Part shown: piece after piece, positions 8,014-21,052 of the stretch
Layout of the letters: the number at the start of each line of letters is the position of its first letter
How positions within the stretch are numbered: the first letter of the stretch is position 1
IMG/VR virus record: IMGVR_UViG_2778261512_000019
Span: 1-22,976 of that record
Strand: one strand, 5' to 3'
DNA: 22,976 nucleotides
From: a virus
Taxonomy: Duplodnaviria > Heunggongvirae > Uroviricota > Caudoviricetes
Made by a program: the position numbers and the translations under genes
Notes under the pieces: generated by a model
Database searches by the model: none
Told to the model about the DNA's origin: nothing
Seen by the model: only the letters and a program-made list of their open reading frames with translations

Positions 8014-8184
8014 ATGTTTGTCAAACCTGTTAAAGGGCGGTCAGTTCCTGACCCTGCCCGCGGCGACCTTTTGCCCGCCGAAGGGCGAAATGTTGACGAG
8101 AACAACTACTGGCTGCGCCGTGAAGCAGCGGGTGATATCCGGCGCGTGAATAAAAAGGTGAACACCGATGACGATAAGCTTTAA
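8014..8184 (+). CDS. Small conserved protein (DUF2635-like), absent from the supplied ORF track
   Basis: 56-aa ORF (MFVKPVKGRSVPDPARGDLLPAEGRNVDENNYWLRREAAGDIRRVNKKVNTDDDKL) with GAGGA RBS 5 nt upstream; overlaps the sheath start; a similar small protein precedes the sheath gene in Mu-like tail clusters. Confidence 0.5.
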   Translation: MFVKPVKGRSVPDPARGDLLPAEGRNVDENNYWLRREAAGDIRRVNKKVNTDDDKL

Positions 8185-9664
8185 CACCATTCCGTCGAAT
8201 ACGCTGGTTCCGCTGTTTTATGCGGAAATGGATAACCAGGCGGCGAATACTGCACAGGACAGCGGAGCATCGCTGCTGATTGGTCATGCCAATAACGGTG
8301 CAGAGATTGTTGCCAACAGTCTGGTACTGATGTCGTCGGCAGACTATGCACGCCAGATTTGTGGTGCGGGAAGTCAGCTGGCGCGTATGGTCGAGGCTTA
8401 TCGCCAGACCGACCCGTTTGGCGAGCTGTATGTGATTGCCGTTCCTGAATCCACAGGCGCGGCGGCAACGGTTACGCTGACGGTGACCGGGGCGGCAACC
8501 GAAACCGGCACGGTGAATGTGTATGTGGGACGTACCCGCGTGCAGGCACCGGTGACTAACGGCGATAACGTCACGATGATTGCCAGCAGTATCCAGGATG
8601 CCATCAATGCCGTTCCGGCCCTGCCGTTTACGGCTTCATCTTCGGCAGGCGTGGTTACACTGACCGCGCGTCATAAGGGGCTTTGCGGGAATGAAATTCC
8701 TGTCAGCCTCAATTACTACGGCTTTGGTGGGGGCGAAGTGCTGCCAGCGGGCGTACAGATTGCCGTGGCGACGGGTACCGCCGGAACGGGTGCTCCGGTT
8801 CTCACCGGCGCGGTGGCTGCAATGGCGGATGAGCCGTTTGATTATATCGGCCTGCCGTTCAACGACACGGCCTCCGTTAACACGCTGGTGACCGAGATGA
8901 ACGATACCAGCGGTCGCTGGAGCTATGCGCGTCAGCTGTATGGTCATGTGTATACGGCAAAGATCGGCACGCTGTCAGAACTGGTGACCGCAGGTGACCA
9001 GTTTAACCAGCAGCACATTACCCTGGCGGGGTACGAAAAAGACACCCAGACGCCTGCCGACGAGCTGGCGGCAAGCCGTACCGCCCGCGCAGCGGTGTTT
9101 ATCCGCAACGATCCGGCACGTCCCACGCAGACCGGTGAGCTGGTGGGTATGCTGCCTGCGCCGAAGGGGAAACGGTTCACGATGACCGAACAACAGACCC
9201 TGCTGTCTCATGGCGTGGCAACGGCGTATGTCGAAAGCGGGGTACTGCGCATTCAGCGTGATGTCACCACGTACAGGAAAAACGCTTACGGGGTTGCGGA
9301 TAACAGCTACCTCGACAGCGAGACGCTGCATACCAGTGCGTATGTACTGCGCAAACTGAAATCCGTCATTACCAGTAAGTACGGGCGTCACAAGCTTGCC
9401 AGCGACGGTACCCGCTTTGGTCCCGGTCAGGCGATTGTCACCCCGGCGGTGATCAAAGGGGAACTGCTGGCAACCTACCGTCAGCTTGAGCGTGCGGGGA
9501 TCGTGGAAAACTACGAACTGTTTAAGCAGTACCTGGTTGTGGAGCGTGATGCCAGCGATCCGAACCGCCTGAACACGCTGTTCCCGCCTGACTATGTTAA
9601 CCAGTTGCGTGTCTTTGCCGTGGTTAACCAGTTCCGTCTTCAGTATTCAGAGGAGTCTGCATAA
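8168..9664 (+). CDS. Contractile tail sheath protein (Mu L-like)
   Basis: 498-aa ORF, N-terminus MTISFNTIPSNTLVPLFYAEMDN... resembles Mu-type sheath proteins; followed by a 118-aa tube gene with TAATG overlap. Confidence 0.85.
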   Translation: MTISFNTIPSNTLVPLFYAEMDNQAANTAQDSGASLLIGHANNGAEIVANSLVLMSSADYARQICGAGSQLARMVEAYRQTDPFGELYVIAVPESTGAAATVTLTVTGAATETGTVNVYVGRTRVQAPVTNGDNVTMIASSIQDAINAVPALPFTASSSAGVVTLTARHKGLCGNEIPVSLNYYGFGGGEVLPAGVQIAVATGTAGTGAPVLTGAVAAMADEPFDYIGLPFNDTASVNTLVTEMNDTSGRWSYARQLYGHVYTAKIGTLSELVTAGDQFNQQHITLAGYEKDTQTPADELAASRTARAAVFIRNDPARPTQTGELVGMLPAPKGKRFTMTEQQTLLSHGVATAYVESGVLRIQRDVTTYRKNAYGVADNSYLDSETLHTSAYVLRKLKSVITSKYGRHKLASDGTRFGPGQAIVTPAVIKGELLATYRQLERAGIVENYELFKQYLVVERDASDPNRLNTLFPPDYVNQLRVFAVVNQFRLQYSEESA

Positions 9665-10020
9665 TGGCCCGTATCGGGGGAACCTGTTATTTCAAAATTG
9701 ACGGTCAGCAGCTATCGCTGACCGGCGGCATTGAGGTGCCCATGAACAGGACGGTCAATGATGACATCATCGGCCTGGACGGTTCAGTGGACCGCAAGGA
9801 AACTCACCGTGCGCCTTATGTTAAAGGGACCTTCAAGGTGCCGAAGAATTTTCCGGTGAGCAAAATCACCTCGTCTGATGAGATGACCATCACTGCCGAG
9901 CTGGCGAACGGTCAGGTCTATGTACTGTCGTCTGCCTGGCTGCACGGCGAAGCGAACCATAATGCCGAAGAAGGGACGGTTGATCTTGAGTTCCACGGTG
10001 AAGAAGGGGATTACCAGTAA
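9664..10020 (+). CDS. Tail tube protein (Mu M-like)
   Basis: 118-aa ORF immediately after the sheath gene; size and position. Confidence 0.8.
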   Translation: MARIGGTCYFKIDGQQLSLTGGIEVPMNRTVNDDIIGLDGSVDRKETHRAPYVKGTFKVPKNFPVSKITSSDEMTITAELANGQVYVLSSAWLHGEANHNAEEGTVDLEFHGEEGDYQ

Positions 10021-10289
10021 TGAAAGAGCTTGAGTTAAAGAAACCGATTACCGCTCATGGCGAGACACTCTCCGTACTGGAGTTTGATGAGCCCACCGGG
10101 AAAGATGTCCGCGAGCTGGGGTATCCCTACCAGATGAATCAGGATGAGTCCGTCAGACTTCTGGCGCATGTGGTATCGAAATACATTGTGCGGCTGGCGA
10201 AAGTGCCGCAAAACTCTGTCGACCAGATGTCTCCGGCAGACCTGAATGCTGCGGCGTGGCTTGTGGCTGGTTTTTTCCTCCAGGCCTGA
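10020..10289 (+). CDS. Tail assembly chaperone (G-like, upstream frame)
   Basis: 89-aa ORF between the tube and tape-measure genes; ends just after a TTTTTTC slippery site. Confidence 0.7.
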   Translation: MKELELKKPITAHGETLSVLEFDEPTGKDVRELGYPYQMNQDESVRLLAHVVSKYIVRLAKVPQNSVDQMSPADLNAAAWLVAGFFLQA

Positions 10290-10438
10290 CGGCTGAATAC
10301 CTCACTGATCGCTTCTTTGACTGCGCCAGCTACTGGCGCATTAATCCCTTCGAATTGCTGAATATGCCGATCAGTGAAATTCCCTTGCTGGTCAGTCAGG
10401 CAAACAGGATAGAGCAGGAGAAACGCACACATGGCTGA
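10020..10438 (+). CDS. Tail assembly chaperone -1 frameshift fusion product (GT-like); shift at the T TTT TTC heptamer 10271-10277, then frame 2 to the stop at 10438
   Basis: The 10256-10438 ORF is in the -1 frame relative to 10020-10289 and overlaps it exactly at the slippery heptamer; the arrangement precedes the tape measure gene as in lambda G/GT. Confidence 0.55.
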
Positions 10439-12266
10439 ATTTGAGCTTAAGGCGTTGATCACCGGTGTCGACAGACTTTCTCCCGCGCTGTCGAAAATGC
10501 AAAAGAAAATCCGGGGATTTAAACGCCAGGCGGAAGAAGCATCACAGGGTGGGCTGGCGCTTGGTGGCGGACTGGCAGCGGGTCTGACGCTTTCCCTGAA
10601 ATCTTATGCCGATCAGGAAAACGCCGCCACCGGGCTGAAAGTCGCCATGATGGATGCGAACGGCGAGGTCGGAAAGCGCTTTCAGGACATCAATAAACTG
10701 GCTATTGGCCTGGGTAACCAGCTACCCGGTACAACGGCTGATTTCCAGAACATGATGCAGATGCTGGTGCGTCAGGGGATCCCGGCAGAAAACATTCTGG
10801 GTGGTGTGGGTAAAGCGACAGCTTATCTTGCGGTACAACTGAAAAAAACACCGGAAGCGGCTGCTGAGTTTGCTGCAAAGATGCAGGATGCTACCGGAAC
10901 GGCGTCAGAAGACATGATGGGGCTGTTCGACACTATCCAGAAGGCGTTTTATCTGGGCGTTGACGATACCAACATGTTGTCCTTCTTCACTAAAACCAGT
11001 TCTGTTCTGAAGATGGTGAACAAGGACGGTCTTCAGGCTGCACAGAGCCTTGCCCCTATCAGCGTCATGATGGATCAGATGGGGATGAACGGGGAGTCGG
11101 CAGGTAATGCCCTGCGAAAAGTTATCCAGTCCGGATTAAGCGTTAAGAAAATCAGGGACGTCAATAAAGTCATGGCCCGCCAGAAACTCGGAGTGCAGCT
11201 CGATTTTACTGACGGCAAAGGGAGTTTTGGCGGTCTTGATAACATGTTCAGGCAACTGGCAAAGCTGCGAAAACTGACCGACGTTAAGCGAACAGGTGTA
11301 CTTAAGGCAATATTTGGTGATGATGCCGAAACCCTTCAGGTGGTCAATGCTCTGATCGATAAAGGAAAGGATGGTTACGATCAGATCCAGCAGAAGATGA
11401 ATAAACAGGCCAGCCTGAATAAACGTGTTCAGGCACAGCTTGGTACGCTGTCCAACCTGTGGGAGGCAATGACAGGGACCGCAACTAACGGCCTTGCGGC
11501 TATTGGCGGCGCATTTTCTGGTGACGCTAAAAATATCACACAATGGCTGGGGGAGTTGGGGGAGAAATTCACGAAGTTTGCGGATGAAAATCCCCGGGTT
11601 ATTCGCGGCGTCGTCGGGCTTGCTGCCGGTCTTGCGATTCTGAAACTGGGATTGATGGGCGTGGGCAGTGCCATCAGTATTGTCAGCAGGATTATGTCGA
11701 TGACGCCGATTGGCATGATTGCGACGGCGATTGCTCTGGCTGCGGGATTAATTATCACTAACTGGGATGTTGTCGGACCTTATTTCAAGAAGCTCTGGGA
11801 AACCATTGGTCCTTATTTTGAGGCAGGTTGGGAACTTCTGAAGAAGGTTTTTGCCTGGTCGCCGCTGGGGATGGTGATCAATAACTGGGGACCGGTTGTT
11901 AAGTGGTTTCAGGATATGTGGGATAAGCTGAAGCCGATTATTGAATGGTTTACCGACAGTTCCGGTGACACGGTCGATGCCATTAACTCGGCGCAGTGGG
12001 GCGCGGGTGCTTATGATGCTTATGGGACGGGAATACCGGCACGGGGATACACTCCTTATCCGGCGGTGGATCCGGCTCAGGCAAACAACGCCTCCGATGC
12101 CACAGGCTCGAATCCCTTCATGATTAACAAAGCTTCTGCGCCAAAAGTTGATGGTGAGATCAAGGTCTCTTTTGTGAATTCGCCTCCGGGTATGCGGGTT
12201 ATGGAAACGCGATCCAGCGGTTTTGATGTCAGCCATGATGTTGGCTATACGCGCTTTGGCAGGTAA
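10431..12266 (+). CDS. Tail tape measure protein
   Basis: 611-aa ORF with a coiled-coil-like N-terminal half and a Gly/Ala-rich hydrophobic segment (VVGLAAGLAILKLGLMGVGSAISIV); directly follows the chaperone pair. Confidence 0.85.
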   Translation: MAEFELKALITGVDRLSPALSKMQKKIRGFKRQAEEASQGGLALGGGLAAGLTLSLKSYADQENAATGLKVAMMDANGEVGKRFQDINKLAIGLGNQLPGTTADFQNMMQMLVRQGIPAENILGGVGKATAYLAVQLKKTPEAAAEFAAKMQDATGTASEDMMGLFDTIQKAFYLGVDDTNMLSFFTKTSSVLKMVNKDGLQAAQSLAPISVMMDQMGMNGESAGNALRKVIQSGLSVKKIRDVNKVMARQKLGVQLDFTDGKGSFGGLDNMFRQLAKLRKLTDVKRTGVLKAIFGDDAETLQVVNALIDKGKDGYDQIQQKMNKQASLNKRVQAQLGTLSNLWEAMTGTATNGLAAIGGAFSGDAKNITQWLGELGEKFTKFADENPRVIRGVVGLAAGLAILKLGLMGVGSAISIVSRIMSMTPIGMIATAIALAAGLIITNWDVVGPYFKKLWETIGPYFEAGWELLKKVFAWSPLGMVINNWGPVVKWFQDMWDKLKPIIEWFTDSSGDTVDAINSAQWGAGAYDAYGTGIPARGYTPYPAVDPAQANNASDATGSNPFMINKASAPKVDGEIKVSFVNSPPGMRVMETRSSGFDVSHDVGYTRFGR

Positions 12267-12289
12267 TGAAAAATTAATCTGTTAATGAG

Positions 12290-12311
12290 TCCCACTCCGG
12301 TGGGATTTTTT
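12290..12311 (+). terminator. Weak hairpin plus T-run between tape measure and the next gene (possible attenuator)
   Basis: TCCCAC-TCCG-GTGGGA 6-bp stem followed by TTTTTT, 24 nt after the tape measure stop. Confidence 0.3.
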
Positions 12312-12326
12312 ATGTACGGAGTTTAT

Positions 12327-13655
12327 ATGACGTGGAAAGACAGACTTCAGGACGCGTCATTTCGCGGTGTGCCGTTTAAGGTTGAAGAAGAAAGTACGGG
12401 AACCGGTCGTCGTGTGGAAACGCACGAATACCCGAACCGCGACAAACCCTATACCGAAGACCTGGGGAAAATCACTTTCCGCCCGTCCATCACGGCTTAT
12501 GTGGTGGGAGATGACTGCTTTGACCAGCGCGATCGCCTGATTGACGCGCTGAATAAACCCGGTCCCGGCACGCTTGTCCATCCGACTTACGGTGAGCTGA
12601 AAGTCTGTGTTGACGGAGAGGTTCGGGTCAGCACATCGAAGAGTGAAGGGCGTATTGTCCGCTTTGACCTGAAGTTTGTCGAAGCGGGAGAACTCTCTTA
12701 CCCCACTTCAGGTGCGGCGACGGCGCAGACGCTGATGTCATCCTGTTCTGCACTGGATGACTGCATCAGTGACAGCTTCAGCGGTTTCAGTATCGATGGC
12801 GTGGCGGATTTCGTGCAGAACGACGTTATTGGTAATGCCAGCATAATGCTGGGGTATGTTTCTGATGCGATGAAAGTGGTGGATTCTGCCGTATCGGATG
12901 CCGCCAGGCTGTTGCAGGGGGATATCTCGGTACTTCTGCCGCCGCCATCGTCAGGCAAAAATTTCGTTGAGCAGGTGCAGAAAATGTGGCGTACCGGGAA
13001 ACGCCTTTATGGTAACGCCAGCGATCTGGTCACCATGATCAAAACGCTTTCCGGTGTCAGCCTCGGCAGTGATCTGCAACCGCGCGGCGTCTGGAAAACG
13101 GACAGTAAAACCACCGCTACGGCGACGCAGCAGCGTAACGTGGTTGCCAGCACCCTTCGTACGACCGCAATCAGCGAAGCGGCGTATGCCGTCACCCGAT
13201 TGCCTGCGCCAACAACTTCCGCGGTGATGCAGAATGCCGCAGTGGGGCAGGCAACAACAGCTGCACAGAGCACCGGCTGGCCTTCCGTCACGCATCCGGC
13301 ACTGAACAATGCACCGGCGATGAAAAACACGGTTGATCTGCCGACGTGGGAAGAACTGACTGACATTCGCGACACACTGAATACGGCAATTGATAAGGAG
13401 TTGTCCCGTACAACCAGTGATGCGCTGTTTCTGGCGCTGCGCCGGGTGAAAGCAGATCTGAATGCGGATATCAACACGCGCCTTGAACAGTCTGCACGGA
13501 TCATTCAGCGCACACCGGATGAGGTTTTACCCGCGCTGGTGCTGGCGGCGACCTGGTTTGATAACGCGACGCGTGACGCGGACATTATCCGGCGTAATGC
13601 TATTACGCATCCCGGCTTTGTGCCGGTGATCCCTCTGAAGGTGCCAGTGCAATGA
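12327..13655 (+). CDS. Mu N-like DNA circularization / baseplate hub-associated protein
   Basis: N-terminus MTWKDRLQDASFRGVPFKVEE... matches the conserved start of Mu gpN-family proteins; GGAG lies 6 nt upstream of 12327. The longer ORF from 12285 would include the hairpin and has no RBS. Confidence 0.8.
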   Translation: MTWKDRLQDASFRGVPFKVEEESTGTGRRVETHEYPNRDKPYTEDLGKITFRPSITAYVVGDDCFDQRDRLIDALNKPGPGTLVHPTYGELKVCVDGEVRVSTSKSEGRIVRFDLKFVEAGELSYPTSGAATAQTLMSSCSALDDCISDSFSGFSIDGVADFVQNDVIGNASIMLGYVSDAMKVVDSAVSDAARLLQGDISVLLPPPSSGKNFVEQVQKMWRTGKRLYGNASDLVTMIKTLSGVSLGSDLQPRGVWKTDSKTTATATQQRNVVASTLRTTAISEAAYAVTRLPAPTTSAVMQNAAVGQATTAAQSTGWPSVTHPALNNAPAMKNTVDLPTWEELTDIRDTLNTAIDKELSRTTSDALFLALRRVKADLNADINTRLEQSARIIQRTPDEVLPALVLAATWFDNATRDADIIRRNAITHPGFVPVIPLKVPVQ

Positions 13656-14731
13656 ACGATAACGTCACGCTACGGGTAAATGGCCGGGAGTGGAATGGCT
13701 GGACATCGGTGCGCATCGGTGCCGGTATTGAACGGCTGGCGCGGGATTTCAGTGTGGAGATCACCCGCCAGTGGCCGGGAGATGAGGGTATCACCACGCT
13801 TCAGCCGCGCATTAAAAACGGTTCAAAAGTGGAAGTGCTGATTGGTGATGAGCGGGTGATCACCGGCTGGGTGGAGGCGACTCCCGTTCGTTACGATGCC
13901 CGTTCGGTCAGCACAGGTATTGCCGGACGCAGTCTGACCGCTGACCTGATTGACTGTGCAGCCGAACCGACACAGTTTAACGGACGATCGCTGGTACAGA
14001 TTGCGCAGGCGCTTGCTGCGCCTTTCGGCATTGAGGTGGTGAACAGCGGTGCGCCGTCGGGTGTTATTCCTGATGTCCAGCCTGATCACGGTGAAACGGT
14101 GATTGAGGTAATCAACAAAATACTCGGTCAGCAGCAGGCACTGGCTTACGACGATCCGCACGGCAGGCTGGTGATTGGCGGTATTGGCTCAACGCGGGCA
14201 CATACCGCGCTGGTACTTGGGGAAAACATCCTTTCCTGCGATACGGAGAAGAGTATCCGGGAGCGGTTTTCTGTTTACCAGGTGGCGGGGCAGCGTACCG
14301 GAAACGACGATGATTTCGGTGAGGCCACCACCACCGCGCTGCGGGCCCGCACAGAGGACGCATTTATTGCCCGTTACCGTCCGATGTATATCAGGCAGAC
14401 AGGGCAGGCTACGGGGGCAGGCTGTATTGCGCGTGCTGACTTTGAAGCCCGGCAACGGGCGGCGCGGACGGATGAAACCACCTATGTGGTGCAGGGCTGG
14501 CGACAGGGTAACGGTACGCTGTGGCAACCCAACCAGCGGGTGATTGTCTTTGATCCGGTCTGTGGTTTTGACAATACCGAACTGCTTGTTTCGGAAGTCA
14601 CGTTTACTCAGGACCAGAACGGCACCCTGACGGAAATCCGTGTCGGCCCGCCTGATGCTTATCTGCCTGAACCTGAAGACCCCGGCGCGCGGAAAAAGAA
14701 AAAAGCCAGAGTACAGGAGGACCCGTTCTGA
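13652..14731 (+). CDS. Mu P-like baseplate hub protein
   Basis: 359-aa ORF coupled (ATGA) to the gpN-like gene, in the conserved Mu-like baseplate order. Confidence 0.75.
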   Translation: MNDNVTLRVNGREWNGWTSVRIGAGIERLARDFSVEITRQWPGDEGITTLQPRIKNGSKVEVLIGDERVITGWVEATPVRYDARSVSTGIAGRSLTADLIDCAAEPTQFNGRSLVQIAQALAAPFGIEVVNSGAPSGVIPDVQPDHGETVIEVINKILGQQQALAYDDPHGRLVIGGIGSTRAHTALVLGENILSCDTEKSIRERFSVYQVAGQRTGNDDDFGEATTTALRARTEDAFIARYRPMYIRQTGQATGAGCIARADFEARQRAARTDETTYVVQGWRQGNGTLWQPNQRVIVFDPVCGFDNTELLVSEVTFTQDQNGTLTEIRVGPPDAYLPEPEDPGARKKKKARVQEDPF

Positions 14732-17327: not shown

Positions 17328-18149
17328 ATGCATCGTATAGACACGAAAACCGCGCAGAAGGATAAGTTCGGCGCGGGTAAGAACGGTTTTACCCGTGGTA
17401 ACCCCCAGACCGGCACACCTGCCACCGATCTGGATGATGACTACTTTGACATGTTGCAGGAGGAACTTTGCAGTGTTGTGGAGGCATCCGGTGCCAGCCT
17501 GGAGAAGGGGCGGCATGACCAGCTGCTTACAGCGCTTCGTGCGCTGCTGTTAAGCCGCAAGAATCCGTTTGGCGATATCAAATCGGATGGCACGGTGAAA
17601 ACGGCTCTCGAAAACCTTGGTTTGGGAGAAGGTGCTCCAGCTATTGGCGTTCCGTTCTTCTGGCCGTCCGCCGCAATGCCAAATACTGTAATCGACAGTT
17701 GGTCCAGTATGGTGTTTTTGAAGTTCAACGGCGCGAAATTCTCTGCCACTGATTACCCTGTGCTGGCGAAAGTGTTTCCGGCGCTAGCATTACCTGACGC
17801 ACGGGGTGATTTCATTCGTATCTGGGATGATGGGCGCGGGATTGATGTCGGACGTACCCTACTTTCAGGGCAATCACACACAATTATGGATCATGCACAC
17901 AATATGGAATTGTGGACGGGGGACGGGCTTGCCGCAGGAAGTGCACGGGAAGGAGTAAACCCAGGAATACTGGCTACATACGGTGACGGGGGAATAGTTA
18001 AAACGGACGAACCCGGTCTTAAGGTGCCTTCCTCACTACGAGCTCTTAGCTCTCGTAGTGTTAAACGTTATGGTGAAATTAGTGGAAATGTAGATACAGA
18101 AACCCGTCCACGAAATATTGCATTTAACTTTCTGGTGAGGGCTAAATAA
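17328..18149 (+). CDS. stfP: Side tail fibre protein: constant N-terminal part (to about 17620) fused to the variable C-terminal part in the current orientation
   Basis: 273-aa ORF; the invertase crossover site lies inside it at 17612-17631 (encoding ENLGLGE); Gly-rich C-terminal region. Confidence 0.75.
17612..17631. repeat. Left invertase recombination site (pix-like) inside the tail fibre gene
   Basis: AAACCTTGGTTTGGGAGAAG; its inverted partner at 19477-19496 differs at one position; AAACC-TT-GGTTT dyad with a 2-bp centre, as in Gin/Hin/Cin/Pin sites. Confidence 0.75.
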
Positions 18150-18742
18150 TGATACCTGTTTTTGATGAAAATGGGCTGGCTACAGTGCCGGGCGATATGC
18201 GTTGTTTTTATTATAATGCAGTAACGTATGAATATACCGGCTGGTCTGATGAATATATTAATACTGGCGTAAGTATACCCGCCTGTTCCACTGGTATTGA
18301 CCCGGGCGAAAACATCCCGGGAAAAGTGGCAGTATTTACGGGTAAGGGATGGAGCCATGAAGAAGACCATCGCAATGAGACCGTTTACTCAACTGAAAAT
18401 GGCGCAGCTGTTACAGTGGATTATATCGGTGCCATCAAAGACGGTTATGTCACGCTTTCACCGTTAACGCCATACGATAAATGGGATGGTGAGAAATGGG
18501 TGACGGATACCGAGGCACAGCATAGCGCCGCAGTAGAAGCGGCAGAAGCACAGCGCCAGTCGCTGATTGATGCTGCAATGGCTTCCATCAGTCTGATTCA
18601 ACTGAAATTACAGGCTGGGCGGAAGCTGACGCAGCCAGAAAACACCCGACTTAACGCTGTGCTGGATTACATTGACGCGGTGACGGCAACAGATACCAGC
18701 ACAGCGCCGGACGTCATCTGGCCTGAACTGCCGGAGGCGTAG
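18149..18742 (+). CDS. tfaP: Tail fibre assembly protein (expressed orientation)
   Basis: 197-aa ORF with TAATG coupling to the fibre gene; C-terminal motif TAPDVIWPELPEA typical of Tfa proteins. Confidence 0.75.
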   Translation: MIPVFDENGLATVPGDMRCFYYNAVTYEYTGWSDEYINTGVSIPACSTGIDPGENIPGKVAVFTGKGWSHEEDHRNETVYSTENGAAVTVDYIGAIKDGYVTLSPLTPYDKWDGEKWVTDTEAQHSAAVEAAEAQRQSLIDAAMASISLIQLKLQAGRKLTQPENTRLNAVLDYIDAVTATDTSTAPDVIWPELPEA

Positions 18743-19157
18743 GCCATTCAATATCTGGCGCACCGGAAGTATCGACCAGTTCCAGTGCGTCCAGATAATC
18801 CAGCCACAAATTATATTGCGCCAGTTCCTCACCTTTCAGACGACCAATTGATGCTTTACCTGGCCATTGTTTACTGTTTATGTATTCGTTGGCCTGGTTA
18901 ATCAATTGCTGCTTTTTAGTTTCGGCTGATGCAATTTGTTCTTCACGTGTTGGTGGAGGTATATCTGCCCATGCAGGCAGTCCATCCTCTCCGACACATC
19001 TGTATTTTCCTTCTGGTGGTGTATCATAGAAATATTCCCTGAAAATTACTTCGTCTATATCAACACCTTTTTCTTCAGGCCATTCACCTTTTTCAACATA
19101 AAGAGACTGAAGTTCGTAAGGATATGCCAGGTTGTTTACGTACAGATATTTCATCAT
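18714..19157 (-). CDS. tfaE: Tail fibre assembly protein (alternative, currently silent orientation)
   Basis: 147-aa minus-strand ORF with C-terminal GAPDIEWPTPP Tfa motif; TAATG-coupled to the alternative fibre tip upstream on the minus strand. Confidence 0.75.
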   Translation of the reverse strand: MMKYLYVNNLAYPYELQSLYVEKGEWPEEKGVDIDEVIFREYFYDTPPEGKYRCVGEDGLPAWADIPPPTREEQIASAETKKQQLINQANEYINSKQWPGKASIGRLKGEELAQYNLWLDYLDALELVDTSGAPDIEWPTPPAVQAR

Positions 19158-19496
19158 TACCAGCCCTTAGCGAAAAACGCACCACCTTCAAGACCATAAT
19201 TGCAGTGAGCTATGAAGCCGGTAGTGCTCCAGTTGGTCGCCCCCCACATATTCCCGCCCCCGAAACCACCATCGCACACAATTACAATGCCCGGTGTCTG
19301 TGTAAATGGAATCGGGAATGAAACATTGGCGGATACAGGCCCGTGTTCACCAGGAAAACTAATTCGTCCCCACTGTTCAATTGAACCATCTGGCATTTTT
19401 CGCCAGCCTGAACCTGATGCATATGATGACATATCAGGTATCTGATTTTCCCCTGTTCCCACATTTCGTTTTGCCGCTTCTCCCAAACCAACGTTT
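19157..19496 (-). CDS. stfE: Alternative tail fibre C-terminal segment (no own start; would fuse in frame to the constant N-terminus after inversion)
   Basis: Minus-strand frame reads [17 protein letters not shown]... from the right recombination site, in the same frame as ENLGLGE at the left site; Gly-rich tip ([16 protein letters not shown]). Confidence 0.7.
19477..19496. repeat. Right invertase recombination site (pix-like), about 60 bp upstream of pin
   Basis: CTTCTCCCAAACCAACGTTT, whose reverse complement AAACGTTGGTTTGGGAGAAG matches the left site at 19 of 20 positions. Confidence 0.75.
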
Positions 19497-19557
19497 ATGA
19501 AAATGCAGAAATAACGAGCAAATGGCATCATTCCTGCTTTTGTCAGGGGGAGCTACC

Positions 19558-20112
19558 ATGCTTATTGGCTATGTACGCGTATCAACAAATGACCAGAACA
19601 CAGATCTACAACGTAATGCGCTGAACTGTGCAGGATGCGAGCTGATTTTTGAAGACAAGATAAGCGGCACAAAGTCCGAAAGGCCGGGACTGAAAAAACT
19701 GCTCAGGACATTATCGGCAGGTGACACTCTGGTTGTCTGGAAGCTGGATCGGCTGGGGCGTAGTATGCGGCATCTTGTCGTGTTGGTGGAGGAGTTGCGC
19801 GAACGAGGCATCAACTTTCGTAGTCTGACGGATTCAATTGATACCAGCACACCAATGGGACGCTTTTTCTTTCATGTGATGGGTGCCTTGGCTGAAATGG
19901 AGCGTGAACTGATTGTTGAACGAACAAAAGCTGGACTGGAAGCTGCTCGCGCACAGGGGCGAATTGGTGGACGTCGTCCCAAACTTACACCAGAACAATG
20001 GGCACAGGCCGGACGATTAATTGCATCAGGAGTTCCTCGCCAGAAGGTGGCGATTATCTATGATGTTGGTGTGTCAACTTTGTATAAGAGGTTTCCTGCA
20101 GAGGATAAATAA
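19558..20112 (+). CDS. pinE: Serine DNA invertase Pin (Gin/Hin/Cin family)
   Basis: 184-aa product starting MLIGYVRVSTNDQNTDLQ with the catalytic Ser in YVRVSTNDQ and a C-terminal HTH (VGVSTLYKRF); matches my recollection of e14 Pin; lies beside the inverted repeats. Confidence 0.9.
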   Translation: MLIGYVRVSTNDQNTDLQRNALNCAGCELIFEDKISGTKSERPGLKKLLRTLSAGDTLVVWKLDRLGRSMRHLVVLVEELRERGINFRSLTDSIDTSTPMGRFFFHVMGALAEMERELIVERTKAGLEAARAQGRIGGRRPKLTPEQWAQAGRLIASGVPRQKVAIIYDVGVSTLYKRFPAEDK

Positions 20113-20218: not shown

Positions 20219-21052
20219 ATGCATGTTTTTGATAATAATGGAATTGAACTGAAAGCTGAGTGTTCGATAGGTGAAGAGGATGGCGTTTATGGTCTAATCC
20301 TTGAGTCGTGGGGGCCGGGTGACAGAAACAAAGATTACAATATCGCTCTTGATTATATCATTGAACGGTTGGTTGATTCTGGTGTATCCCAAGTCGTAGT
20401 ATATCTGGCGTCATCATTAGTCAGAAAACATATGCATTCTTTGGATGAAAGAAAAATCCATCCTGGTGAATATTTTACTTTGATTGGTAATAGCCCCCGC
20501 GATATACGCTTGAAGATGTGTGGTTATCAGGCTTATTTTAGTCGTACGGGGAGAAAGGAAATTCCTTCCGGCAATAGAACGAAACGAATATTGATAAATG
20601 TTCCAGGTATTTATAGTGACAGTTTTTGGGCGTCTATAATACATGGAGAACTATCAGAGCTTTCACAGCCTACAGATGATGAATCGCTTCTGAATATGAG
20701 GGTTAATAAATTAATTAAGAAAACGTTGAGTCAACCCGAGGGCTCCAGGAAACCAGTTGAGGTAGAAAGACTACAAAAAGTTTATGTCCGAGACCCAATG
20801 GTAAAAGCTTGGATTTTACAGCAAAGTAAAGGTATATGTGAAAACTGTGATAAAAATGCTCCGTTTTATTTAAATGATGGAAGCCCATACTTGGAAGTGC
20901 ATCATGTAATTCCCCTGTCTTCAGGTGGTGCTGATACAACAGATAACTGTGTTGCCCTTTGTCCGAATTGCCATAGAGAATTGCACTATAGTAAAAATGC
21001 AAAAGAACTAATCGAGATGCTTTACGTTAATATAAACCGATTACAGAAATAA
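20219..21052 (+). CDS. mcrA: McrA, modified-cytosine-dependent (type IV) restriction endonuclease with C-terminal HNH domain
   Basis: 277-aa ORF (the K-12 McrA length) with C-terminal CENCD...HHVIPLSSGGADTTDNCVALCPNCHRELH zinc-finger/HNH motif; AT-rich gene between pin and attR, as in e14. Confidence 0.9.
   Translation: MHVFDNNGIELKAECSIGEEDGVYGLILESWGPGDRNKDYNIALDYIIERLVDSGVSQVVVYLASSLVRKHMHSLDERKIHPGEYFTLIGNSPRDIRLKMCGYQAYFSRTGRKEIPSGNRTKRILINVPGIYSDSFWASIIHGELSELSQPTDDESLLNMRVNKLIKKTLSQPEGSRKPVEVERLQKVYVRDPMVKAWILQQSKGICENCDKNAPFYLNDGSPYLEVHHVIPLSSGGADTTDNCVALCPNCHRELHYSKNAKELIEMLYVNINRLQK

What the first reader, a model, noticed from the sequence alone, without database searches (positions are those of the whole stretch)
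10020..10438. Programmed -1 ribosomal frameshift in the tail assembly chaperone pair
The 89-aa chaperone ORF ends 10 nt after a T TTT TTC slippery heptamer (10271-10277, in the zero frame as GGT TTT TTC). The downstream 60-aa ORF is in the -1 frame and starts to be open exactly there, running to 10438 where it overlaps the tape measure start. A -1 slip would yield a roughly 139-aa fusion, the conserved G/GT arrangement upstream of tape measure genes.
Basis: partly seen in the sequence, partly recalled or inferred. Interest (0 to 1): 0.45.

Follow-up and report, generated by a model that had tools for sequence, protein, structure and literature searches.

The report
Phage tail chaperone -1 frameshift site
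This is the standard programmed -1 ribosomal frameshift that long-tailed phages use to make a short and a long tail-assembly chaperone from one start codon, here in an SfV-like prophage of E. coli/Shigella; it looks real and is strongly conserved but ordinary, and its only news value is that public annotations of this phage group omit it.

Summary
ORF 10020-10289 (89 aa, Pfam Phage_TAC_7) reads GGT TTT TTC in frame, so T TTT TTC (10271-10277) is an in-register X XXY YYZ heptamer. The stop lies 9 nt later. The -1 frame runs to TGA 10436-10438 and overlaps the tape-measure ATG (10431) by 8 nt. A slip gives exactly 139 aa.

One detail is wrong. The -1 frame is open from 10148, not "exactly there".

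Comparative evidence supports the interpretation:
- 8 related phages, 12 genomic loci from 10 named enterobacterial species or MAG bins, and 77 of 80 IMG/VR contigs keep an in-register T TTT TTY at the same ...FF site.
- Most relatives have no start codon in the -1 frame upstream of the site.
- Substitution phase switches from the zero frame to the -1 frame at the heptamer.
- All four codons at the site are synonymously invariant, against 5 of 54 in the background.
- Profile comparison aligns VAGFF here with VVGFL of phage P2 gpE, where the E/E+E' frameshift is annotated in RefSeq and reported as a -1 frameshift in the literature.

No conserved stimulatory structure lies next to the site, as is also reported for P2. 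This is a new member of a known kind. It is unannotated in the annotated GenBank/RefSeq records of relatives that I inspected. An unexplained invariant 8-bp hairpin (10322-10340) lies 44 nt downstream.

The parts
9664..10020 (+). Tail tube gene (118 aa). It is the upstream neighbour, and its stop TAA overlaps the chaperone ATG by 1 nt (TAATG).
   Evidence: PF10618 Tail_tube, E = 2.4e-33; sequence.
10020..10289 (+). Zero-frame tail assembly chaperone, the short form (89 aa, 10.0 kDa). It is the analogue of lambda gpG and P2 gpE.
   Evidence: PF10109 Phage_TAC_7, E = 3.6e-16, with the model matched at positions 2-78 of 79 and ending at residue 86, which is the slip site. phrog_166 'tail protein', E = 2e-23. 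PGAP names it 'phage tail assembly protein'.
10271..10277 (+). Slippery heptamer T TTT TTC, in X XXY YYZ register (GGT TTT TTC).
   Evidence: It is invariant in 13 distinct SfV-like sequences, including 3 synonymous positions plus the following CCT codon: 4/4 codons against 5/54 in the background, Fisher p = 3e-4. T TTT TTT or T TTT TTC sits at the homologous site in the ST64B, SfIV, phiP27 and BgVeeders33 clades. It is GGT TTT TTG in P2-like phages and GGT TTT TTC in Aeromonas phage AhyVDH1.
10277..10438 (+). -1 frame extension. It has 53 codons, starting with CCT at 10277 (the C is read twice), plus the TGA stop. It is the analogue of lambda T and P2 E'.
   Evidence: This is the only frame open over the whole stretch. 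Window against EPP-1, substitutions fall 9/7/27 by codon position in the -1 phase, and comparable skews appear in 5 other pairs. tblastn of the fusion finds two pieces in two frames in 23 phage records. phrog_32181, function unknown, E = 2e-41. No Pfam or NCBIfam hit.
10020..10438 (+). Predicted frameshift fusion product, the long form: 139 aa, 15.8 kDa (residues 1-86 from the zero frame, 87-139 from the -1 frame).
   Evidence: Fusion length is 138-140 aa in all 8 related phages, against 142 aa for P2 E+E'.
10431..12266 (+). Tape measure protein gene (611 aa). Its ATG lies 8 nt inside the end of the -1 extension (ATGGCTGA).
   Evidence: PF10145 PhageMin_Tail, E = 5e-27. The same 8-nt overlap geometry is found in P2 between E+E' and T, as ATGAGTAA.
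10322..10340 (+). Perfect 8-bp / 3-nt-loop hairpin or palindrome TGCGCCAG-CTA-CTGGCGCA, inside the -1 extension (codons C-A-S-Y-W-R) and 44 nt 3' of the heptamer. Its relation to the frameshift is unknown.
   Evidence: All stem positions are invariant in 13 distinct sequences, including 4 synonymous positions, while the loop wobble base and the flanking wobble bases vary. It is present in 77/80 IMG/VR contigs. It occurs once in the window and once in the SfV genome. It was not detectable in the ST64B-like clade (and inspection of the sequences).

Best explanation
This is a programmed -1 ribosomal frameshift of the phage tail-assembly-chaperone (G/GT, P2 E/E+E') type.

Ribosomes that start at ATG 10020 mostly terminate at TGA 10287-10289 and make the 89-aa chaperone. 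A minority slip. With peptidyl-tRNA-Phe on UUU (10272-10274) in the P site and Phe-tRNA-Phe on UUC (10275-10277) in the A site, both tRNAs move back one base onto UUU UUU (10271-10276). Both stay fully paired. These ribosomes then read CCU CCA GGC ... in the -1 frame as far as TGA 10436-10438, and make a 139-aa protein with the same first 86 residues and a 53-residue extension.

The rest is inferred by analogy with lambda G/GT and P2 E/E+E' and is not shown here. The shared N-terminal domain would coat the tape measure protein encoded immediately downstream. The extension of the rare long form would recruit the tube protein to start tube polymerisation. Neither form would stay in the virion. 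The fixed ratio would be set by the heptamer alone, since no conserved stimulatory element flanks it.

Shown here: the anatomy, the conservation, the coding signature of the -1 frame, nucleotide-level selection on the heptamer, and positional homology to the P2 site. Inferred: that ribosomes slip, the efficiency (probably a few per cent), and the chaperone roles.
For: 1. Anatomy and gene order.

2. Conservation. tblastn of the 139-aa fusion hits two pieces in two frames in SfV, SfI and SfII (95%), Edwardsiella EPP-1 (76%), Pantoea AH07 (66%), ST64B, F1055, SfIV and phiP27 (39-43%) and Burkholderia BgVeeders33 (43%). Every one has T TTT TTC or T TTT TTT in zero-frame register at the homologous ...FF site. 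In every one a -1 ORF ends at or in the tape-measure start, and the fusion is 138-140 aa.

3. Wider sampling. 12 loci from 10 named enterobacterial species or MAG bins and 77 of 80 IMG/VR contigs keep GGT TTT TTC CT.

4. No independent initiation. The -1 frame between its upstream stop and the heptamer has no ATG, GTG or TTG in 6 of 8 related phages and in 7 of 12 genomic loci. There is no Shine-Dalgarno sequence before GTG 10256 in the window.

5. Coding phase switches at the heptamer. Upstream, substitutions concentrate at zero-frame third positions (for example 18/10/47). Downstream they concentrate at -1-frame third positions (9/7/27; 6/3/25). The other two frames contain stops.

6. Nucleotide-level selection. 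The codons GGT, TTT, TTC and CCT are invariant in 13 distinct sequences. Only 5 of 54 other codons with a conserved amino acid are invariant (p = 3e-4). The codon before the T run is always T-ending although it encodes G, N, R, L or T in different clades.

7. Homology to an annotated and literature-reported case. hhalign of SfV-like against P2-like fusions gives probability 95.6% and E = 1.2e-8, and aligns VAGFF (82-86) with P2 VVGFL (81-85). PF10109 ends at the slip site in both. The P2 RefSeq record annotates the join at this site.

8. Heptamer quality. U_UU.U_UU.C and U_UU.U_UU.U are under-represented in E. coli genes. They fall in the most efficient E. coli class, H_HH.U_UU.Y (PMC4066793).

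9. Ribosomal rather than RNA-polymerase slippage. The P2-like phage PHL101 replaces the T run with another in-register heptamer, G GGA AAG, and not with another homopolymer.
Against: - There is no direct evidence here: no junction peptide, ribosome profiling or reporter data.
- No conserved hairpin or pseudoknot lies 5-9 nt downstream, and there is no upstream Shine-Dalgarno-like element. Efficiency therefore rests on the heptamer alone and is unknown.
- A run of six T could also support low-level RNA-polymerase slippage, which would give the identical protein.
- One IMG/VR contig (L086) carries GGG TTT TTT CTC, which loses the canonical heptamer and keeps only the U_UUU tetramer.
- Two contigs (L034, L035) have an extra G that fuses the two frames. 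These may be sequencing errors or defective prophages.
- The extension does not match Pfam PF06528, the P2 GpE' domain. Compared alone with P2-like extensions it is not significantly similar (E = 0.52).
Confidence: 0.88

Rival explanations
1. Transcriptional slippage. RNA polymerase occasionally adds one extra U while copying the T6 run. Ordinary translation of that minority mRNA then yields the same 139-aa protein.
For: The site is a homopolymer run, T6 here and T7 in the ST64B clade. The codon before it is always T-ending, which lengthens the run. An insertion of one U gives exactly the same protein, so the comparative protein evidence cannot separate the two mechanisms. A weak, G-U-rich stem (10248-10267) precedes the run and was flagged as terminator-like.
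Against: - Efficient slippage by bacterial RNA polymerase is described for runs of about 9 A or T, matching a 9-10 bp hybrid (PMC5009743). The run here is 6.
- The run is never lengthened. It stays T6 followed by C in 13 distinct SfV-like sequences and in 77/80 contigs.
- The upstream stem is not conserved; alifold finds no structure there.
- In the homologous P2-like family one member (PHL101) has G GGA AAG at this site. That is a ribosomal heptamer with no long homopolymer.
- The heptamer is in X XXY YYZ register in every case.
- P2 E/E+E' is described in the literature as a translational frameshift (PMC3091744, citing Christie 2002 and Xu 2004).
Confidence: 0.07
2. Two separate genes. The 60-aa ORF 10256-10438 is translated on its own from GTG 10256 or an internal start, as some phage records annotate it.
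For: The ORF exists mechanically with a GTG start. It is annotated as a separate 'hypothetical protein' in phage vB_EcoM-689R6. It has its own PHROG family, phrog_32181.
Against: - No Shine-Dalgarno sequence lies upstream of GTG 10256.
- 6 of 8 related phages and 7 of 12 genomic loci have no ATG, GTG or TTG in the -1 frame upstream of the heptamer.
- The only Met inside the extension (NMP in the window) is not conserved in EPP-1, AH07 or Erwinia, and it lies after the most conserved motif, FDCASYWRINP.
- The -1 frame opens at variable distances upstream, from 21 to 198 nt.
- Synonymous invariance of the heptamer is unexplained under this model.
Confidence: 0.03
3. Chance heptamer next to a non-functional leftover reading frame, with no second product of any use.
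For: Heptamers of this form occur 81 times on the plus strand of the window, so a single instance alone proves little.
Against: - The expected number of in-register heptamers in the two-frame overlap is about 0.08.
- The arrangement is conserved across Enterobacterales and Burkholderia.
- The -1 frame shows a purifying-selection signature.
- The heptamer is invariant at synonymous sites.
- The site is positionally homologous to the P2 site.
Confidence: 0.01

Closest known systems
Phage P2 gpE / gpE+E' -1 frameshift (Christie et al. 2002; Xu, Hendrix & Duda 2004; annotated in NC_001895)
   Same: - The N-terminal domain is the same Pfam family, PF10109, and it ends at the slip site.
- The slip site is at the aligned position, VAGFF against VVGFL.
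- Both have a GGT TTT TTN heptamer.
- Sizes are nearly the same: 89/139 aa here, 91/142 aa in P2.
- The 8-nt overlap between the stop of the extension and the tape-measure ATG is the same.
- Neither has a stimulatory hairpin (PMC3091744).
   Different: - The last base of the heptamer is C (A-site Phe UUC), not G (Leu UUG). The P2-like Aeromonas phage AhyVDH1 also has TTC.
- The zero-frame stop lies 9 nt after the heptamer, against 18 nt in P2.
- The extension does not hit PF06528 (Phage_P2_GpE) and on its own is not significantly similar to P2-like extensions.
- The rest of the tail is Mu-like, not P2-like: sheath, tube, DNA-circulation protein and gp44-48 homologues.
Phage lambda gpG / gpGT -1 frameshift (Levin, Hendrix & Casjens 1993; Xu et al. 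2013, 2014)
   Same: - Same genomic position, between the major tail/tube gene and the tape-measure gene.
- Same logic: an abundant short form and a rare long form that share an N-terminus.
- A heptamer-only signal, with presumably the same chaperone role (PMC5009743).
   Different: - The heptamer is G GGA AAG in lambda.
- The lambda proteins are about twice as long (from my own knowledge: G 140 aa, GT 279 aa).
- No detectable sequence similarity.
- Lambda is a siphovirus, whereas this tail is contractile.
Phage Mu gp41 tail assembly chaperone (-2 frameshift)
   Same: - Same Pfam family by its description ('E, or 41 or 14').
- The flanking genes here (sheath, tube, gp43-48 homologues) are Mu-like.
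   Different: - Mu is reported to shift by -2 (PMC2628397, PMC5009743).
- Here the -2/+1 frame is closed; it is open only over 10246-10296.
- Mu gp41 is 144 aa, and its stop lies 144 nt before gene 42.
E. coli dnaX and IS3-type stimulated -1 frameshifts
   Same: Tandem -1 slippage on an X XXY YYZ heptamer in E. coli.
   Different: Those signals combine an upstream Shine-Dalgarno-like element with a downstream hairpin or pseudoknot at a spacing of 5-9 nt. Neither is present or conserved here.

Membership tests
G/GT-type tail assembly chaperone frameshift (Xu, Hendrix & Duda 2004) | Located between the major tail/tube gene and the tape measure gene. | tested here: met
   Tube 9664-10020 (PF10618), chaperone 10020-10289 (PF10109), tape measure 10431-12266 (PF10145).
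G/GT-type tail assembly chaperone frameshift (Xu, Hendrix & Duda 2004) | Two overlapping ORFs, the second in another frame and without a start or ribosome-binding site of its own. | tested here: met
   The -1 frame is open over 10148-10438. No start codon lies upstream of the heptamer in 6/8 related phages and 7/12 genomic loci. No Shine-Dalgarno sequence precedes GTG 10256.
G/GT-type tail assembly chaperone frameshift (Xu, Hendrix & Duda 2004) | A slippery sequence in the overlap, in register with the upstream frame, and conserved among relatives. | tested here: met
   T TTT TTC at 10271-10277. It is conserved as T TTT TTY in all relatives examined and is synonymously invariant.
G/GT-type tail assembly chaperone frameshift (Xu, Hendrix & Duda 2004) | The downstream frame is a real coding sequence. 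| tested here: met
   Substitutions show third-position bias in the -1 phase, and the other frames contain stops. Protein-level conservation of the extension holds down to about 40% identity.
G/GT-type tail assembly chaperone frameshift (Xu, Hendrix & Duda 2004) | Both the short product and the fused product are made in vivo at a fixed ratio, and both are needed for tail assembly. | not testable with these tools
   This needs proteomics, a reporter assay or genetics.
P2 gpE / gpE+E' family | N-terminal domain of Pfam PF10109 (Phage_TAC_7). | tested here: met
   E = 3.6e-16, 59.4 bits against a cut-off of 25. P2 E+E' scored in the same scan gives 1.4e-12.
P2 gpE / gpE+E' family | Slip site at the homologous position at the end of the N-terminal domain. 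| tested here: met
   hhalign gives probability 95.6% and E = 1.2e-8, aligning residues 82-86 (VAGFF) with P2 81-85 (VVGFL). The Pfam match ends at model position 78/79 in both.
P2 gpE / gpE+E' family | Heptamer T TTT TTG. | tested here: not met
   Here it is T TTT TTC. Six of the seven bases and the preceding GG are identical. The P2-like phage AhyVDH1 also has TTC.
P2 gpE / gpE+E' family | C-terminal extension of Pfam PF06528 (Phage_P2_GpE). | tested here: not met
   No PF06528 hit even at E <= 10, for either the 60-aa ORF or the fusion, whereas P2 E+E' hits at 1.2e-21. Profile against profile for the extension alone gives E = 0.52. A shared W-x-x-P-x-E...[ML]-x-[IL]-[ST]-E pattern is visible by eye only.
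Mu gp41-type -2 frameshift | The extension is encoded in the -2/+1 frame. | tested here: not met
   The +1 frame is open only over 10246-10296.
Stimulated -1 PRF (dnaX / IS3 type) | A conserved hairpin or pseudoknot 5-9 nt downstream, and/or a Shine-Dalgarno-like element 6-17 nt upstream. | tested here: not met
   Only a 4-bp GGCC/GGCU stem is found (10283-10294), and it is broken in AH07 and in L017-L019. alifold finds nothing upstream and only a 3-bp stem downstream. No Rfam hit.

The most novel reading that the evidence does not exclude
The perfectly invariant 8-bp hairpin at 10322-10340 may be a selected RNA element that tunes tail-gene stoichiometry. It lies 44 nt past the slip site, in a stretch translated only by ribosomes that have frameshifted. 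It could act as a decay barrier or processing site that keeps sheath-tube-chaperone mRNA more abundant than tape-measure mRNA. It could instead act as a roadblock whose queued ribosomes influence frameshifting or tape-measure initiation. Either role would be a new accessory layer on the classic G/GT signal, specific to the SfV-like clade.
Probability: 0.12. Interest if true: 0.4.

Novelty: new member of a known kind. Interest (0 to 1): 0.15.

Why it matters
Mainly for annotation. The prophage carrying this region is found in 1,102 of 5,426 complete E. coli genomes and in the Shigella serotype-converting phages SfV, SfI and SfII. Yet PGAP/RefSeq and every annotated GenBank record I inspected handle the region in one of two ways. 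Most leave it unannotated: a 142-nt gap between chaperone and tape measure in the SfV-like records, and an 84-133 nt gap in the others. One record calls a separate 60-aa hypothetical protein there. The SfI and SfIV genome papers do not mention a frameshift. Adding the 139-aa joined CDS would correct the proteome of a very common prophage. It would also give a name to PHROG 32181, currently 'unknown function'.

Biologically it adds nothing unexpected. It is one more instance of a near-universal device. The one instructive detail is that a Mu-like contractile tail here uses a P2-type -1 site rather than Mu's -2 shift.

Tried and rejected
1. Local stimulatory structure. I folded 45-103 nt downstream of the heptamer in the window and in 20 relatives, and ran RNAalifold on 13 SfV-like sequences. 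Nothing is conserved within 5-9 nt. The 4-bp GGCC/GGCU stem is broken in several relatives. The 10-bp inverted repeat 10302-10311 / 10368-10377 is perfect only in the E. coli/Shigella lineage and breaks in EPP-1 and Buttiauxella.

2. Long-range pairings proposed by alifold. These were UUUUUCCU (10272-10279) with the tape-measure Shine-Dalgarno region AGGAGAAA (10416-10423), and GCCUG (10284-10288) with CAGGC (10397-10401). Both show only invariant or one-sided changes and no compensatory change. They are not supported.

3. Sequestration of the tape-measure Shine-Dalgarno sequence by 10477-10492 (inverted repeat I1). It is not conserved in EPP-1, AH07, Buttiauxella, Atlantibacter or Erwinia, and alifold does not recover it.

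4. An upstream hairpin plus T run acting as a terminator or slippage stimulator. It is not conserved.

5. Rfam gives no family in 9600-10800.

6. A PDB sequence search with the fusion returns only spurious light-harvesting-complex hits.

7. The search for related loci with the 7-sequence alignment failed because no stretch was conserved enough. The 3-sequence alignment worked, but the IMG/VR hits were almost all 99-100% identical, so they add population depth rather than divergence.

8. I could not obtain Xu et al. 2004 or Christie et al. 2002. I therefore cannot say whether SfV was already listed there.

9. I did not run a structure prediction.
Full report
**What is there.** The window is the virion-morphogenesis half of an SfV-like prophage. 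PHROG and Pfam scans give this gene order:
- small and large terminase, portal, protease, HK97-type major head protein, and connector proteins;
- a Mu-like contractile tail: sheath 8168-9664, tube 9664-10020, a small PF10109 protein 10020-10289, tape measure 10431-12266, DNA-circulation protein 12285-13655, baseplate hub 13652-14731, wedge proteins and fibres;
- an invertible fibre segment with a DNA invertase.

The 1.1-kb region around the finding is 98% identical to phages SfV, SfI and SfII. It occurs in 1,102 of 5,426 complete E. coli genomes.

**Checking the observation.** The 89-aa ORF reads ...GCT GGT TTT TTC CTC CAG GCC TGA. T TTT TTC (10271-10277) is therefore an X XXY YYZ heptamer in the correct register, 9 nt before the stop. 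The -1 frame runs to TGA 10436-10438. That stop shares the octamer ATGGCTGA with the tape-measure start at 10431. A tandem -1 slip gives exactly 139 aa, 15.8 kDa against 10.0 kDa for the short form.

It is open from 10148, and the first start codon is GTG 10256.

Chance is an unlikely explanation. In 23 plus-strand genes there are only 11 in-register heptamers. Three are of the class that is efficient in E. coli. This is the only one that opens a long extension, and the extension ends precisely at the next gene.

**Comparative evidence that the two frames make one protein.**
- *Two frames, many phages.* tblastn with the hypothetical 139-aa fusion finds two pieces in two frames in 23 phage records. 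The hits range from 95% identity (SfV, SfI, SfII) through Edwardsiella EPP-1 (76%) and Pantoea AH07 (66%) to ST64B, F1055, SfIV and phiP27 (39-43%) and Burkholderia phage BgVeeders33 (43%).
- *Heptamer and geometry are kept.* In each of these, T TTT TTC or T TTT TTT sits in zero-frame register at the homologous ...FF position. The -1 ORF runs into the tape-measure start, and the fusion is 138-140 aa.
- *Distance to the zero-frame stop varies.* It is 9, 30 or 63 nt, so what is conserved is the heptamer and the -1 frame, not the short tail of the zero frame.
- *Wider sampling.* Twelve further loci from 10 named enterobacterial species or MAG bins all keep GGT TTT TTC. So do 77 of 80 IMG/VR contigs.
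- *No independent start.* Six of 8 related phages and 7 of 12 genomic loci have no ATG, GTG or TTG in the -1 frame between its upstream stop and the heptamer. The window's GTG 10256 has no Shine-Dalgarno sequence. Independent initiation cannot explain a conserved peptide.
- *Coding phase switches at the heptamer.* Upstream, substitutions pile up at third positions of the zero frame (18/10/47 for window against EPP-1). Downstream they pile up at third positions of the -1 frame (9/7/27 for the same pair; 6/3/25 for SfIV against phiP27). The other frames contain stops.
- *Selection on the nucleotides.* In 13 distinct SfV-like sequences, 49 of 54 codons with a conserved, degenerate amino acid vary synonymously. 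The four codons GGT TTT TTC CCT are invariant (Fisher p = 3e-4).
- *T-ending codon before the run.* Across clades this codon encodes G, N, R, L or T, and it always ends in T.

**Relation to known cases.** The N-terminal domain is Pfam PF10109, "tail assembly chaperone proteins E, or 41 or 14". The match ends at residue 86, the slip site, as it does in P2 gpE.

The P2 RefSeq record annotates E (91 aa) and a joined E+E' CDS (142 aa), with a -1 frameshift at GGT TTT TTG. It shows the same 8-nt overlap between the E' stop and the tape-measure ATG.

A profile-profile comparison of 12 SfV/ST64B-like fusions with 8 P2-like fusions gives 95.6% probability and E = 1.2e-8. It aligns VAGFF here with VVGFL in P2. 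The P2-like Aeromonas phage AhyVDH1 even has the identical GGT TTT TTC.

The extension is the weak point for strict family membership. It has no PF06528 hit, and taken alone it is not significantly similar to P2-like extensions (E = 0.52). Only a W-x-x-P-x-E...[ML]-x-[IL]-[ST]-E pattern is shared by eye.

Phage Mu, whose tail genes otherwise resemble these, is reported to use a -2 shift (PMC2628397, PMC5009743). Here the +1/-2 frame is closed.

**Mechanism.** E. coli tRNA-Phe (anticodon GAA, from my own knowledge) reads both UUU and UUC. After a tandem -1 slip from UUU-UUC to UUU-UUU, both tRNAs therefore remain cognately paired.

Sharma et al. (PMC4066793) list U_UU.U_UU.C and U_UU.U_UU.U among heptamers that are under-represented in E. 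coli genes and that frameshift without stimulators. They place H_HH.U_UU.Y in the most efficient class in E. coli.

I found no conserved stimulator. There is no Shine-Dalgarno-like element upstream. There is no conserved stem within 45 nt downstream in the SfV-like clade, and there is no Rfam match. Only the high-GC Burkholderia relative has a strong hairpin 7 nt after the heptamer (-26.8 kcal/mol, z = -3.6). P2-like phages are likewise reported to lack a hairpin (PMC3091744).

The expected outcome is a few per cent of long product. Lambda G:GT is about 30:1, and P2-type sites are 2- to 3-fold more efficient (PMC5009743). The number for this site is unknown.

The chaperone roles are inferred from lambda (PMC5009743) and were not tested here. 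In that model the shared domain coats the tape measure, the extension recruits tube protein, and neither form is in the virion.

**Rivals.**
- *RNA-polymerase slippage on T6* would give the identical protein and cannot be excluded from sequence alone. It is less likely for four reasons. Efficient slippage needs runs of about 9 (PMC5009743). The run is never lengthened in about 90 sequences. The weak upstream stem flagged is not conserved. A P2-like homologue (PHL101) substitutes G GGA AAG, a ribosomal heptamer without a homopolymer.
- *A separate 60-aa gene* is contradicted by the missing start codons in relatives.
- *A chance heptamer* is contradicted by all the comparative results.

**Status in databases and literature.** None of the annotated records of relatives that I inspected joins the two frames. 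These were PGAP RefSeq for E. coli C9, plus SfV, vB_EcoM-689R6, EPP-1, AH07, F1055, SfIV, ST64B, phiP27 and BgVeeders33. Most leave the region unannotated. The gap between chaperone and tape measure is 142 nt in the SfV-like records and 84-133 nt in the others. vB_EcoM-689R6 instead calls a 60-aa hypothetical protein there.

The SfI and SfIV genome papers never mention a frameshift. I could not read Xu et al. 2004, so I cannot exclude that SfV is in their tables.

I therefore file this as a new, or at least unannotated, member of a thoroughly known kind, and I score its interest low.

**A side observation worth recording.** A perfect hairpin or palindrome, TGCGCCAG-CTA-CTGGCGCA (10322-10340), lies 44 nt downstream of the heptamer, inside the extension. 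Every stem base is invariant in 13 distinct sequences, including four synonymous positions. The loop wobble base and both flanking wobble bases vary.

It is too far away to be a canonical frameshift stimulator. It is unique in the window and in the SfV genome. I could not detect it in the ST64B-like clade. Its function is unknown. It sits in RNA that only frameshifted ribosomes translate, so it should be folded on most transcripts.

Noticed in passing
window 10322-10340: A perfect 8-bp stem with a 3-nt loop, TGCGCCAG-CTA-CTGGCGCA, lies inside the -1 extension (codons C-A-S-Y-W-R). All stem bases, including 4 synonymous positions, are invariant in 13 distinct sequences from about 10 enterobacterial species. 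The loop wobble base (C/T/A) and the flanking wobble bases vary. It lies 44 nt 3' of the heptamer and is unique in the window and in the SfV genome. I did not see it in the ST64B-like clade. Function unknown.
   Followed up: partly
L034 and L035 (IMG/VR UViG_2585427747_000001 and 2585427730_000011), about 850-860; L086, about 850-860: Two contigs carry an extra G before the T run (GCT GGG TTT TTT CCT...). This puts the chaperone and its extension in one continuous 139-aa ORF, so there is no short form. One contig has GGG TTT TTT CTC, two zero-frame-synonymous changes that destroy the canonical heptamer. These are either sequencing errors or defective prophages.
   Followed up: partly
window ~10057 (query position 458 of 9600-10700) compared with SfIV (L007): There is a mosaic boundary here. 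SfIV-type phages are about 97% identical to the window through sheath, tube and the first ~38 nt of the chaperone gene. After that point the chaperone (43% aa identity) and the tape measure (<50% identity per PMC3851460) diverge together. This suggests that chaperone and tape measure are exchanged as one module, with the frameshift site retained in both versions.
   Followed up: partly
window 17328-20112: This looks like an invertible tail-fibre segment. It contains a fibre gene (17328-18149, +), a fibre-assembly gene (18149-18742, +), an oppositely oriented second assembly gene (18714-19157, -) and fibre C-terminal fragment (19157-19531, -), followed by a DNA invertase (19522-20112, phrog_125, E = 6e-98). 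SfV itself has O-antigen gtr genes at the corresponding place.
   Followed up: no
window 20219-21052: A 277-aa HNH-endonuclease-like ORF (phrog_3106, E = 8e-86) lies just after the invertase, at the edge of the tail module.
   Followed up: no
L010 (Burkholderia phage BgVeeders33) 1063-1112: Unlike the enterobacterial relatives, this phage has a strong stem-loop that starts 7 nt after its T TTT TTC heptamer (-26.8 kcal/mol, z = -3.6 against shuffles). This is the classical spacing for a -1 frameshift stimulator.
   Followed up: no
window 10408-10423 / 10477-10492: An inverted repeat could pair the tape-measure Shine-Dalgarno sequence (GGAGAAA) with TTTCTCC, 53 nt downstream. It is present in the E. 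coli/Shigella, Scandinavium, Citrobacter and Kluyvera versions but not in EPP-1, AH07, Buttiauxella, Atlantibacter or Erwinia, and the consensus folding does not support it.
   Followed up: yes
window 10020-10438, against public annotation (L001, L002, L004-L010): PGAP/RefSeq and most GenBank records leave the stretch between the chaperone stop and the tape-measure start unannotated. The gap is 142 nt in the SfV-like records and 84-133 nt in the others. PHROG 32181 ('unknown function') corresponds to the -1 extension called as a stand-alone gene.
   Followed up: yes
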